This document shows, in pieces, positions 835 to 2,155 of a stretch of DNA of 11,196 nt. The translations under genes and the position numbers were made by a program. The stretch is taken from the IMG/VR virus record IMGVR_UViG_2541047814_000003, positions 1-11,196 of that record; one strand, given 5' to 3'. Each line of letters begins with the position of its first letter. Position 1 is the stretch's first letter. Origin of the DNA: a virus (Duplodnaviria; Heunggongvirae; Uroviricota; Caudoviricetes). Under the pieces are notes generated by a model. That model was not told where the DNA came from. It did not search any database and saw nothing but the letters and a program-made list of their open reading frames with translations.

Positions 835-1330
835 CCTTAATCATCTGCGTAATCATAATGATTATTCAGCAAGCGCAATTTTGCGCTTTGCTTAAAGTTC
901 AGCGAGTTACCGCGCCGACTTCCTCAAATTGAGGTTTCCGAAAATATCAGCGGGTTAGCGATTAAGCTGACGAGTAATTAAACTGCGAAAATTTCGTAGT
1001 TTGTGAATATATTCCGGTCTGCTGGTTAACAGTCCTCAGATGTGAGTGATGTATCCGGCGCAATTTTGCGCTTTGCTTTAATCTCAGTAAGTTACCGCGC
1101 CAATTTCCACAGTCAGTGGAAATTTGGAAGAATCAACGGTTTAGGCCTTAATCATCTGCGTAATCATAATGATTATTCAGCCAGCGCAATTTTGCGTTAT
1201 CTGGAATATCAGCAAGTTACCGCGCCGGATTCAGCTAATGGCTGTTTCCGAAAGAATCAACGGGTTAGGCTGGTTTCCCCCGATGTTCGCCGCTGGCGAA
1301 TTTCGAAAATATCAACCAGTTACCGCCGTA
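835..1330. repeat. Non-coding tandem direct repeats (about 125-185 bp units) with conserved sub-blocks
   Basis: 36-bp block CCTTAATCATCTGCGTAATCATAATGATTATTCAGC identical at 835-870 and 1146-1181; GCGCAATTTTGCG at 873, 1058, 1184; AGTTACCGCGCC at 905, 1090, 1215 (variant 1318); TTTCCGAAA..ATCA.CGGGTTAGG at about 936, 1127, 1245. Confidence 0.75.
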
Positions 1331-1601
1331 ACCGCTCCGGCTTCTTCCAGTGGTACGTTATTTTTTCTTTCTCCCGATACATCTCAACGCGGCGATTGTA
1401 GGCCAGCATTTCAAGAACGCGGATCCGTATGTCGCGCATATCCACATCATTAAGCTGGATACCATCACGGCGCATCACCTCAGCAACCACACGCGCATAG
1501 TTTTCGGCTGTCACGCTGTCCGGCTGCGTGGTCTGTTCGTCAGCCTGCTGGCTGATTCCAGAGACGCGGCGGATTAATCGCAGTATTTCGGATTCAGTCA
1601 T
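1320..1601 (-). CDS. Hypothetical protein (93 aa) in the position lambda gives to large terminase
   Basis: ATG 1601, 11 nt after the TerS stop, weak SD; no recognisable family; 3' end runs into the tandem-repeat region. Confidence 0.4.
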   Translation of the reverse strand: MTESEILRLIRRVSGISQQADEQTTQPDSVTAENYARVVAEVMRRDGIQLNDVDMRDIRIRVLEMLAYNRRVEMYREKEKITYHWKKPERLRR

Positions 1602-1612
1602 AGCGTACTACG

Positions 1613-2155
1613 TTACTTATCTTTATTCTGCTGCAACTTTTCCGGTACGTTTCCGGTTGTTTCTTTCAAGTAATCAGCCAGTATCTGTGGGAGGTTGTCG
1701 GCAACTCTGGCACTGGCATTACAGGCTTTAACCACTTCCCTTTTAAGCCCATCCAGCATGGCTGGGGTAATGTGTGGAAAGCTCCTTTGCATAGTAAGCG
1801 GGATGCTGTCCATGATTGAAGAAATCTGGCTCGCCAGCTTTGAAAGCGCGTACAGGCAAAACCCTGTATCAATAACGTCGCCTCGTTCGCGCTCGTTTTT
1901 AAGCTCCTGCGCCTCCGCCTGCGCTGTCAGTAATCTGATCCTGACTCGTAATAGTTCATCATCGTCAATATCGCCTTTGTCGTTTGTAAGCTGGCTAATT
2001 GCATTGTTAACCCTATTGTCTATCACGCTGGCAACATCATAAAACGCCTCACGGCCTTTACGCTCAACGGGAGTTACTCCCCACTTGTCGAACGCTGTCG
2101 CACTTACACGGCAGCTTTTAGCCATGTTTTTTTTGTTCATCAGGTGCGATTTCAT
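1613..2155 (-). CDS. Terminase small subunit, lambda Nu1-like
   Basis: By-eye alignment to recalled lambda Nu1: LTAQAEAQELKNERERGDVIDTGFCLYALSKLASQISSIMDSIPLTMQRSFP vs LTRAQADAQELKNARDSAEVVETAFCTFVLSRIAGEIASILDGLPLSVQRRFP, EAFYDVASVI vs EVLYDSAAVI, C-terminal LPQILADYLKETTG vs LIPGLLSEYIEQSG. Three candidate ATG starts (2155, 2140, 2125), none with a clear SD. Confidence 0.88.
   Translation of the reverse strand: MKSHLMNKKNMAKSCRVSATAFDKWGVTPVERKGREAFYDVASVIDNRVNNAISQLTNDKGDIDDDELLRVRIRLLTAQAEAQELKNERERGDVIDTGFCLYALSKLASQISSIMDSIPLTMQRSFPHITPAMLDGLKREVVKACNASARVADNLPQILADYLKETTGNVPEKLQQNKDK

What the first reader, a model, noticed from the sequence alone, without database searches (positions are those of the whole stretch)
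1320..2155. Nu1-like TerS keeps a terminase-interaction-like C-terminus but no large terminase follows
In lambda, gene A overlaps the end of Nu1. Here the TerS is followed by an unrelated 93-aa ORF and then repeats. The TerS C-terminus (LPQILADYLKETTG) resembles the Nu1 segment that contacts gpA, consistent with recruiting a helper TerL. The 93-aa product could be an accessory packaging factor or a spurious ORF.
Basis: partly seen in the sequence, partly recalled or inferred. Interest (0 to 1): 0.55.

Follow-up and report, generated by a model that had tools for sequence, protein, structure and literature searches.

The report
Satellite's own lambda-type small terminase
The window is a known kind of E. 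coli phage satellite (a PICI) that carries its own lambda-type small terminase next to a lambda-type cos site but no large terminase; that is how satellites normally hijack a helper phage, so the finding is mostly ordinary, though this version has never been tested experimentally.

Summary
1613-2155(-) encodes a full-length Nu1-family TerS, 1320-1601(-) encodes a 93-aa protein, repeats follow, and no TerL exists in the window.

The window is a classical Gram-negative cos-type PICI inserted between cspD and clpS. Its TerS is 96% identical to that of the catalogued island EcCIIHE3034. The TerS gene lies 145 bp downstream of an exact lambda cosN. It occupies the slot that rppA holds in EcCICFT073.

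The TerS is a mosaic. Its DNA-binding domain is N15-like (56% identity). Its central and C-terminal domains are closest to phage PhiR5_1 (69% and 50%). The C-terminal 40 residues are only 30% identical to lambda. The most likely mechanism is that the satellite TerS binds its own cosB and recruits a helper gpA-type TerL. This is inferred, not shown.

The 93-aa ORF is a real gene (dN/dS 0.17-0.25, present in 1,245 of 5,426 complete genomes). It stays about 90% identical whether TerS or Rpp precedes it. It also occurs in a satellite with no lambda cosN, so it is not a TerS-specific partner.

Its stop codon opens a conserved array of units, each an IHF-consensus box plus a hairpin. The array's function is unknown.

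Verdict: a new member of a known kind, of moderate-to-low interest.

The parts
1613..2155 (-). Satellite terS: a 180-aa Nu1-family small terminase. It has an N-terminal winged HTH (residues about 5-40), central helices (about 65-126), a C-terminal TerL-binding-like region (127-166), and a 14-aa extension (167-180) absent from lambda and N15.
   Evidence: PF07471 9e-23 and phrog_57 1.9e-52. 34% identity to lambda Nu1. 46.6% to N15 gp1, the best phage hit. Domain identities. AF2 pLDDT 74 with beta-alpha-alpha-beta-beta then helices. Foldseek top hit 7lwr_A, TM 0.70 on target, followed by MerR/BldC/RacA wHTH proteins. Omega 0.13-0.20.
1320..1601 (-). Conserved 93-aa PICI gene, ortholog of the gene downstream of rppA in EcCICFT073. 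Predicted three-helix protein with an invariant basic C-terminus, WKKPERLRR. Function unknown.
   Evidence: phrog_1561 1.1e-55, no Pfam, NCBIfam or PADLOC hit. 90% identical to the CFT073 ortholog. dN/dS 0.17-0.25. Present in 1,245 genomes. Only 38 clusters at 50% identity in 1.84 billion proteins. AF2 pLDDT 66.8. No fold match.
2289..2300 (-). cosN: an exact copy of the lambda cohesive-end sequence GGGCGGCGACCT, and the only one in the window.
   Evidence: The flanks align with lambda, CFT073 cos1, PhiR5_1 and PhiR12_2.
2301..2332 (-). Lambda-like right-end region upstream of cosN, containing cosQ. Nearly identical to EcCICFT073 cos1.
   Evidence: Alignment. Sequence read.
2231..2253 (-). Putative cosB/R3-like site at cos positions about 48-70: GGTGGTGGTGGTTTTGTTGTTTG. 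It contains TTGTTGTTT, resembling N15 R3 (GAGGTTGTTGTTT, bp 48-60).
   Evidence: Alignment. Position of N15 R3 from PMC9026076. Binding is inferred.
2158..2193 (-). 10-bp inverted repeat ATACACCAAC / GTTGGTGTAT with a 16-nt spacer, ending 2 nt before the terS ATG. Either a second protein-binding site or a hairpin covering the translation start.
   Evidence: Sequence read. Conserved in IHE3034. Function not tested.
2333..2354 (-). Intrinsic-terminator-like hairpin GCCGGA-GAAA-TCCGGC followed by T6, between the 137-aa scaffold-like gene and cos.
   Evidence: Sequence read. Conserved in CFT073. The tool's consensus scan did not list it.
860..1322 (-). Array of six co-oriented units. Each unit is a box TAACYNGYTGAT followed by a hairpin of about 26-30 nt. 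The box is the reverse complement of the IHF consensus WATCARNNNNTTR. The hairpin's inner stem differs between units but stays paired. The first box's TAA is the stop codon of the 93-aa gene.
   Evidence: There are 8 box matches against 0.62 expected, with 0 of 200 shuffles reaching that number. Five of seven IHF-consensus matches in the window lie here. Mean fold z-score is -2.4. The same arrangement appears in 9 of 9 related loci.
92..102 (.). att core ATAACTATCAT, the reverse complement of ATGATAGTTAT given for EcCIIHE3034. Bases 1-106 are chromosomal (clpS/yljB side).

Best explanation
The window is a classical cos-type phage-inducible chromosomal island (PICI) of E. coli, integrated between cspD and clpS. 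Its packaging module reads cosQ-cosN (lambda-type), then a distinct cosB, then terS, then the 93-aa gene.

**TerS.** It is a complete Nu1-family small terminase in a satellite that has no large terminase. Proposed mechanism:
1. After helper induction, the satellite TerS binds the satellite's own cosB through its N15-like winged-HTH domain.
2. It oligomerises through the conserved central domain.
3. It uses its C-terminal domain to recruit the gpA-type TerL of a lambda-like helper.
4. The helper TerL nicks the shared lambda-type cosN and packages island DNA.

This is the cos-phage equivalent of the SaPI TerS strategy. The gene occupies the slot where EcCICFT073 carries Rpp, which needs the helper's TerS as a bridge to TerL.

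Shown here: gene content, homology, domain mosaic, cos anatomy, absence of TerL, and purifying selection. Inferred: DNA binding at cosB, TerL recruitment, and independence from the helper's TerS.

**The 93-aa gene.** It is a genuine, narrowly distributed PICI gene that travels with the last position of this operon, whichever packaging protein precedes it. Its stop codon opens an array of IHF-box-plus-hairpin units that lies between the operon and attP. I think it most likely acts with that array, as a small nucleic-acid-binding or architectural factor at the operon end or attP-proximal region, rather than as a TerS partner. This last step is weakly supported (about 0.3).
For: **Island identity**
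- Integrase, AlpA, D5/P4-type primase with P4-like iterons GGTGAACAGT at 5600-5850, gpE-like capsid protein, gpD-like decoration protein, and no tail or lysis genes.
- Same att site, core sequence and gene order as EcCIIHE3034.

**TerS**
- Family and domain evidence.
- Exact lambda cosN lies 145 nt upstream of terS. cosQ/cosN is conserved while cosB diverges.
- The DNA-binding domain is 56% identical to N15 gp1, and an N15-R3-like TTGTTGTTT is present in cosB (R3 position from PMC9026076).
- The C-terminal 40 residues of lambda TerS are the TerL-binding domain, and Rpp lacks such a domain (PMC9026076).
- The satellite C-terminus is 50% identical to TerS of E. coli phage PhiR5_1, which has the same cosN and a gpA-type TerL.
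- Omega is 0.13-0.20 over the whole gene and 0.14-0.22 in the C-terminal third against a divergent allele.
- The terS gene is in 769 of 5,426 complete genomes, against 97 for rppA/B.
- No TerL was found.

**93-aa gene and array**
-.
Against: - No binding or transfer data exist for this TerS. In Fillol-Salom 2018 Table 1, EcCIIHE3034 transferred poorly from its native strain (<1 to 40 transductants per ml), so function with natural helpers is unproven.
- The C-terminal domain is only 30% identical to lambda and N15 and 50% to the best phage match, so the cognate TerL is unidentified.
- The central oligomerisation domain is 53-69% identical to phage TerS. Mixed satellite/phage TerS oligomers, an Rpp-like dependence on helper TerS, are therefore not excluded.
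- For the 93-aa protein, the AF2 model is only moderate (pLDDT 66.8), there is no fold or family match, and there is no direct link to the array beyond fixed adjacency.
- One related island has a single box (L012).
Confidence: 0.65

Rival explanations
1. The satellite TerS works mainly by mixing with the helper's TerS, an Rpp-like mode. It co-oligomerises with phage TerS through the conserved central domain. This retargets the hybrid complex to the island's cosB, poisons phage packaging, and still needs the helper's TerS.
For: The central domain (72-126) is the best-conserved part: 53-69% identical to lambda, N15 and PhiR5_1 TerS. The gene sits in the rpp slot. Rpp acts by heterocomplex formation (PMC6739421).
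Against: Unlike Rpp, this protein has its own full C-terminal TerL-binding-like domain under purifying selection. Rpp binds the TerS DNA-binding domain, not the central domain. Rpp and this TerS share only about 35 N-terminal columns.
Confidence: 0.2
2. The 93-aa protein is a packaging accessory or interference factor. It would act either as a Ppi-like inhibitor of the helper's TerS or as a cofactor of the TerS/Rpp-TerL complex.
For: In every locus examined it lies immediately downstream of a protein with a TerS-type HTH: TerS, RppA, a 136-aa Rpp-like protein, or a 175-aa protein. Here it starts 11 bp after the terS stop, which suggests co-expression. SaPIs pair TerS with a small Ppi (PMC6739421 discussion).
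Against: It stays 90% identical while its upstream partner switches between unrelated C-terminal architectures. It occurs in a satellite without lambda cosN and with different morphogenesis genes. In EcCICFT073, among the genes cloned from the region after the ori, only c1503 (rppA) blocked lambda. The paper's text does not list which genes were cloned, so whether the 93-aa ortholog was among them is my assumption. There is no similarity to any packaging protein.
Confidence: 0.15
3. The terS-cos segment is a decaying remnant of a lambda-like prophage head region with no current function.
For: The island also carries gpE-, gpD- and Nu3-like genes of lambdoid origin. The ssb gene in this copy has a premature stop.
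Against: The reading frame is intact and omega is 0.13-0.20. The same gene is present in 769 complete genomes at two or more att sites. cosN is exact. Synteny matches functional PICIs.
Confidence: 0.03

Closest known systems
EcCIIHE3034 / EcCI18098 (E. coli PICIs at cspD-clpS; Fillol-Salom et al. 2018, ISME J, PMC6092414, supplementary table)
   Same: Same att site and core sequence, same gene order, TerS 96% identical, and the 93-aa gene and box array present.
   Different: IHE3034 has a second, inverted cosN (cos2) between terS and the 93-aa gene; this window has one cos and an 11-bp junction. The window's box array is expanded to six units. Its ssb carries a premature stop.
EcCICFT073 and its Rpp system (Fillol-Salom et al. 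2019, Mol Cell, PMC6739421)
   Same: Same island family and gene order. Near-identical cosQ/cosN. 93-aa ortholog 90% identical. The packaging-specificity gene sits directly after cos1.
   Different: The slot holds the 144-aa RppA, which lacks a TerL-binding C-terminus and must bind the helper's TerS. No BLASTP similarity to this TerS. Profile homology covers only the N-terminal HTH, 35 columns. cosB differs.
Lambda Nu1 and N15 gp1 (Nu1-family TerS of cos phages)
   Same: Three-domain architecture, location just after cosN/cosB, and wHTH DNA-binding domain. N15 shares the short DNA-binding-domain form and a similar R3-like motif.
   Different: In the phages, TerL overlaps the 3' end of the TerS gene; here there is none. 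The C-terminal 40 residues are only 30% identical. There is a 14-aa C-terminal extension. cosB is short, with no evident R3-I1-R2-R1 set.
SaPI TerS (pac-type staphylococcal PICIs)
   Same: The same logic: the satellite encodes only the small terminase, which redirects the helper's TerL to satellite DNA (PMC6739421 discussion).
   Different: Those are headful (pac) systems with an unrelated TerS family and a separate Ppi inhibitor. This is cos packaging with a Nu1-type protein. Homology was not tested.
RIB/RIP elements (IHF site flanked by palindromic units at 3' ends of E. coli operons; from my own knowledge, not checked in the library)
   Same: An IHF-consensus box next to a palindrome, placed at the 3' end of a transcription unit.
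   Different: The palindromes are short, vary between units and are not REP/PU sequences. The units are specific to this satellite module and start at the gene's stop codon.

Membership tests
Nu1-family small terminase (Pfam PF07471) | Sequence match above the curated threshold | tested here: met
   81.1 bits against a cutoff of 30, E=9e-23. phrog_57 matches at 1.9e-52 over residues 1-178.
Nu1-family small terminase (Pfam PF07471) | [quoted passage not shown] | tested here: met
   AF2 gives beta-alpha-alpha-beta-beta at residues 5-40 with pLDDT 73-84. Foldseek top hit is 7lwr_A, a viral packaging-motor entry (rmsd 2.1 A, TM 0.70 on target), followed by MerR, BldC and RacA. E-values are weak (0.05) because the domain is small.
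Nu1-family small terminase (Pfam PF07471) | C-terminal domain that binds the large terminase | tested here: inconclusive
   Alignable and under purifying selection, but 30% identical to lambda and N15 and 50% to PhiR5_1. Binding cannot be tested with these tools.
Nu1-family small terminase (Pfam PF07471) | Gene lies just downstream of cosN/cosB | tested here: met
   Exact cosN at 2289-2300(-), 145 nt upstream of the ATG.
Nu1-family small terminase (Pfam PF07471) | Cognate TerL gene adjacent, overlapping in lambda and N15 | tested here: not met
   No terminase large-subunit domain in any ORF of the window. This is the expected state for a satellite.
Classical Gram-negative PICI | int, alpA and pri/rep with adjacent ori; size about 10-15 kb; no tail or lysis genes; dedicated att site | tested here: met
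   Integrase and AlpA. D5/P4 primase. Iterons at 5600-5850. About 11 kb between the att core at 92-102 and int. The att site equals that of EcCIIHE3034.
Classical Gram-negative PICI | Induction and transfer by a helper phage | not testable with these tools
   Requires an experiment.
Rpp (redirecting phage packaging) proteins | Similarity to RppA/B/C; about 144-153 aa; wHTH plus C-terminal dimerisation helix; no TerL-binding domain | tested here: not met
   No BLASTP alignment to RppA. Profile match limited to 35 N-terminal columns. The protein has a full Nu1-type centre and C-terminus.
Capsid-forming PICI (cf-PICI) | Own TerL, portal, protease, head-tail connectors and HNH | tested here: not met
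   Only gpE-like, gpD-like and a Nu3/scaffold-like fragment are present.
phrog_1561 (the 93-aa protein) | Full-length profile match | tested here: met
   E=1.1e-55 over 1-93 of 93. The family has no assigned function.
IHF-binding site array | Match to WATCAANNNNTTR with an upstream A/T tract; IHF binding | tested here: inconclusive
   The relaxed consensus WATCARNNNNTTR is enriched: 7 matches against 1.06 expected, 5 of them in 945-1322. Three of those five match the strict consensus. Binding was not tested.

The most novel reading that the evidence does not exclude
A complete Nu1-type TerS, not Rpp, may be the main and possibly ancestral packaging device of classical E. coli PICIs (769 genomes against 97 for rppA/B). 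It would hijack lambda-like TerL directly, without the helper's TerS, and its C-terminal alleles would track helper TerL types. The 93-aa gene together with the IHF-box/hairpin array that starts at its stop codon may form a previously unrecognised satellite module. That module is shared by PICIs with different helpers. It could, for example, control read-through from the late operon across attP into int in the excised circle.
Probability: 0.3. Interest if true: 0.55.

Novelty: new member of a known kind. Interest (0 to 1): 0.35.

Why it matters
Published mechanistic work on E. coli cos-type PICIs centres on Rpp. Its authors ask where Rpp came from and suggest it evolved from TerS (PMC6739421).

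This island family carries either a full TerS or an Rpp at the same locus, behind the same cosQ/cosN. Only the cosB and the protein are swapped. That gives a natural pair for testing the question directly.

In complete E. coli genomes the TerS version, which includes O157:H7 strains, is about eight times more frequent than rppA/B by megablast counts. RppC-type genes were not counted. If the TerS version packages without the helper's TerS, these islands would behave like SaPIs with helpers lacking terS, yielding satellite-only lysates. That would be useful for PICI-based delivery tools.

The 93-aa gene and its box/hairpin array are conserved parts of these islands and remain uncharacterised.

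Tried and rejected
- **Fold and family searches for the 93-aa protein.** Pfam, NCBIfam, PADLOC, PDB sequence search, AF2 plus Foldseek against PDB and BFVD, and tblastn against 50,697 phage records all returned nothing useful. Only the function-less phrog_1561 matched.
- **Exhaustive HMMER search of 1.84 billion cluster representatives.** It found only 38 clusters, mostly fragments. The family is too narrow for a deep alignment.
- **Rfam on the whole window.** No credible RNA family, so the repeats are not a known sRNA.
- **Repeats as a replication origin.** Rejected. The origin is the P4-like iteron cluster at 5600-5850, and the motif differs.
- **Repeats as integrase arm sites.** Considered unlikely. 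They lie 800-1,200 bp from the att core here. They are also conserved in L006-L008, a different satellite type whose integrase and att site are not on the fetched contigs.
- **A second cos site.** CFT073 and IHE3034 have one; this window does not.
- **Strand of the hairpins.** Sense and antisense folding energies are equal (-11.1 against -10.8 kcal/mol), so the strand could not be decided.
- **Consensus promoter/terminator scan.** No terS promoter was found, and the scan missed the visible terminator at 2333-2354.
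Full report
**What the window is**

All substantial genes lie on the minus strand. In order they are:
- a tyrosine integrase (9958-11196);
- an AlpA-family regulator (9339-9635);
- a D5/P4-type primase (5849-7681), followed by P4-like iterons GGTGAACAGT at 5600-5850;
- an SSB gene and a PerC-family regulator;
- a 68-aa gene;
- a lambda gpE-like major capsid protein (3134-4189);
- a gpD-like decoration protein (2787-3122);
- a 137-aa protein resembling the C-terminal scaffold part of head proteases;
- the finding's two ORFs.

Bases 1-106 are ordinary E. coli chromosome next to clpS. In empty-site genomes they run straight into yljB/cspD. The att core ATAACTATCAT at 92-102 is the reverse complement of the core that Fillol-Salom et al. 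2018 list for the PICIs EcCIIHE3034 and EcCI18098 at cspD-clpS.

The window is therefore a classical Gram-negative phage-inducible chromosomal island. An identical terS/93-aa segment is found in strain N10.

**Checking the observation**

1613-2155(-) encodes a 180-aa protein. It matches Pfam Phage_Nu1 (9e-23) and PHROG 57 'terminase small subunit' (1.9e-52). It aligns with lambda Nu1 over 178 residues at 34% identity, E=2e-33.

The quoted LPQILADYLKETTG aligns with lambda's last residues, IPGLLSEYIEQSG. In lambda, gene A (711-2636) overlaps Nu1 (191-736), and N15 has the same layout.

Here a 93-aa ORF starts 11 bp after the terS stop, and repeats follow. No ORF in the window has a large-terminase domain.

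**Anatomy of the packaging module**

An exact lambda cohesive-end sequence, GGGCGGCGACCT, lies at 2289-2300(-), 145 nt upstream of the terS ATG. It is the only one in the window.

The roughly 30 bp upstream (the cosQ side) and the first roughly 35 bp downstream are nearly identical to EcCICFT073 cos1 and to lambda. The sequences then diverge, which is the cosB position.

At cos positions about 47-70 the window reads GGTGGTGGTGGTTTTGTTGTTTG. N15's single R3 site, mapped to bp 48-60 according to Murialdo & Feiss 2022, reads GAGGTTGTTGTTT.

A terminator-like hairpin with a T6 run (2333-2354) separates the capsid genes from cos. A 10-bp inverted repeat (2158-2193) abuts the terS start.

**The TerS is a mosaic**

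Identities by domain:

| Domain (residues) | N15 | lambda | PhiR5_1 |
|---|---|---|---|
| DNA-binding (1-55) | 56% | 33% | 27% |
| Central (72-126) | 55% | 53% | 69% |
| C-terminal (127-166) | 30% | 30% | 50% |

For comparison, lambda and N15 are 80% identical to each other in the C-terminal 40 residues. The literature assigns TerL binding to those residues of lambda TerS.

PhiR5_1 and PhiR12_2 are E. coli temperate phages with the same cosN and a gpA-type TerL.

A 14-residue tail, TTGNVPEKLQQNKDK, has no counterpart in these phages but is kept in a divergent PICI allele.

An AlphaFold model (pLDDT 74) shows a beta-alpha-alpha-beta-beta winged HTH followed by long helices. Its best structural match is a viral packaging-motor DNA-binding domain, 7lwr_A, followed by MerR-type wHTH proteins. 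Fillol-Salom et al. 2019 report the same pattern for lambda TerS and RppC.

The gene is under purifying selection, with omega 0.13-0.20 overall and 0.14-0.22 in the C-terminal third against the NDM2 allele.

**Relation to Rpp**

In EcCICFT073 the gene order is the same. The slot after cos1 holds the 144-aa gene rppA (c1503), followed by a 93-aa gene 90% identical to the one here.

RppA and this TerS show no BLASTP similarity. A profile-profile comparison detects homology only across about 35 N-terminal HTH columns (93.9% probability).

Rpp lacks a TerL-binding domain and uses the helper's TerS as the bridge to TerL. The protein here has that domain itself.

The TerS cassette is also found at the phoQ-roxA att site that EcCICFT073 uses, in an O157:H7 strain. 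The TerS-for-Rpp exchange is therefore independent of the integration module.

By megablast, terS of this type is in 769 of 5,426 complete E. coli genomes. rppA/B is in 97; RppC-like genes are too divergent to be counted this way.

**Most likely mechanism**

The satellite TerS binds its own cosB and brings in a helper gpA-type TerL, which cuts the shared cosN. This is the SaPI TerS logic applied to a cos system.

What is shown is anatomy, homology and selection. DNA binding, TerL recruitment and independence from the helper's TerS are inferred.

The main rival is an Rpp-like mode in which the satellite TerS mixes with phage TerS through the well-conserved central domain. The two modes are separated by one experiment: does a helper lacking terS still mobilise the island?

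**The 93-aa gene**

It is real. It gives a full-length match to phrog_1561, dN/dS of 0.17-0.25 against orthologs, and it is present in 1,245 complete genomes.

It is narrowly distributed, with 38 clusters at 50% identity in 1.84 billion proteins. It has no hit in 50,697 phage records. It has no family, defence-system, PDB or fold match. The model is three helices with an invariant basic tail, WKKPERLRR.

It always follows a protein with a TerS-type HTH: TerS, RppA, a 136-aa Rpp-like protein, or a 175-aa protein. The 175-aa case is in a different satellite (AAA_25 helicase, ProQ, PerC) with no lambda cosN.

Because it stays nearly unchanged while its neighbour changes completely, a specific partnership with this TerS is unlikely.

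In EcCICFT073, of the genes cloned from the region after the ori, only c1503 interfered with lambda. The paper's text does not list which genes were cloned. That the 93-aa ortholog was among them is my assumption.

**The repeats**

Six co-oriented boxes TAACYNGYTGAT lie at 898-1322 on the gene strand (8 matches in the window against 0.62 expected).

Each box is followed by an A/T-rich spacer and a two-tier hairpin. The inner stem differs between units but stays paired, for example TCGCC/GGCGA, CAGC/GCTG, GCGCAA/TTGCGC, TCCAC/GTGGA, CCTCA/TGAGG and CCCCC/GGGGG. The mean fold z-score over 16 units is -2.4.

Read on the other strand, the box is the IHF consensus WATCARNNNNTTR. Five of the window's seven matches are in the array, with 0 of 200 shuffles reaching seven.

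In 9 of 9 related loci the first box's TAA is the stop codon of the 93-aa gene. All boxes face the same way, and their number ranges from one to six. The window's six result partly from a local duplication with 311-bp spacing.

What the array does is unknown. It resembles the IHF-site-plus-palindrome elements found at 3' ends of E. coli operons; that comparison rests on my own knowledge.

In the excised circle, terS, the 93-aa gene, the array, attP and int are all co-directional. Read-through control into int is one testable idea.

**Comparison with known systems, and novelty**

PICIs with a terS and no terL are the textbook case (SaPIs). Fillol-Salom et al. 2018 note that some Gram-negative PICIs carry terS.

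EcCIIHE3034, listed in their supplement, has this same TerS at 96% identity. So the core of the finding is expected biology in a catalogued island type.

I found no discussion in the searchable library of four points:
- a full Nu1-type TerS and Rpp are alternative occupants of one locus in one island family;
- the TerS type is the commoner of the two;
- the TerS is a mosaic of an N15-like DNA-binding domain with a PhiR5_1-like remainder;
- the 93-aa gene with its box/hairpin array forms a conserved module.

I rate the finding as a new member of a known kind, with interest 0.35.

Noticed in passing
L002:12422-12433(+) and L002:13161-13172(-); L004:9500-9511(+) and L004:10367-10378(-); L013:1302(+) and L013:2169(-); window 2289-2300 only: In EcCICFT073, EcCIIHE3034 and an O157:H7 island, the rpp/terS gene is bracketed by two convergent cosN sites (cos1 and cos2). 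This window has only cos1, and terS abuts the 93-aa gene. The contiguous junction occurs in 113 of about 769 terS-carrying complete genomes. The purpose of cos2 is an open question in the literature (PMC6739421).
   Followed up: partly
window 2231-2253(-) versus L002 cos1 positions 53-64: The TerS-type cosB contains GGTGGTGGTGG. The Rpp-type cosB has the reverse-complement triplet repeat CACCACCACCAC at about the same distance from cosN, inside the R3-PICI site proposed by Murialdo & Feiss. This could be an inverted version of one ancestral site, or coincidence.
   Followed up: no
window 5077-5319(-): The island's ssb gene has a premature stop at codon 81 (Trp to stop). The 136-aa ortholog in L001 matches at 97.5% identity through residue 121 by tblastn, so this copy's SSB is probably truncated.
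   Followed up: partly
window 2787-4189(-) and 2361-2774(-): The island encodes gpE-like capsid, gpD-like decoration and Nu3/scaffold-like proteins, but no portal or protease. In EcCICFT073, deleting the capsid or decoration homolog changed neither transfer nor interference (PMC6092414). Their role is unexplained.
   Followed up: no
window 330-460: There are several copies of GTTAACA(T)TTTT in both orientations within about 230-360 bp of the att core (92-102). They may be integrase arm-type sites.
   Followed up: no
L006:5547-6790, L007, L008: A different satellite type (AAA_25 helicase, ProQ-domain protein, PerC, transglycosylase-like 678-aa protein) ends with the same trio. The trio is a TerS-HTH-like 175-aa protein, an 86-aa homolog of the 93-aa protein, and the box/hairpin array. 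It has no lambda cosN. It may be related to EcCIMP1-like PICIs mobilised by P22-like phages; that link is untested.
   Followed up: partly
L012:1501-2043(-): A PICI terS allele (strain NDM2) has a nearly unchanged DNA-binding domain but a strongly diverged C-terminal third (dS 1.25 against 0.21 in the DNA-binding domain). This suggests recombination that swaps the presumed TerL-specificity domain.
   Followed up: partly
window 4644-4672 versus L001 (about 400 bp extra): The closest complete-genome relative (strain 23CRST038) carries about 400 bp with two small hypothetical genes between the 68-aa gene and perC. These are absent from the window.
   Followed up: no
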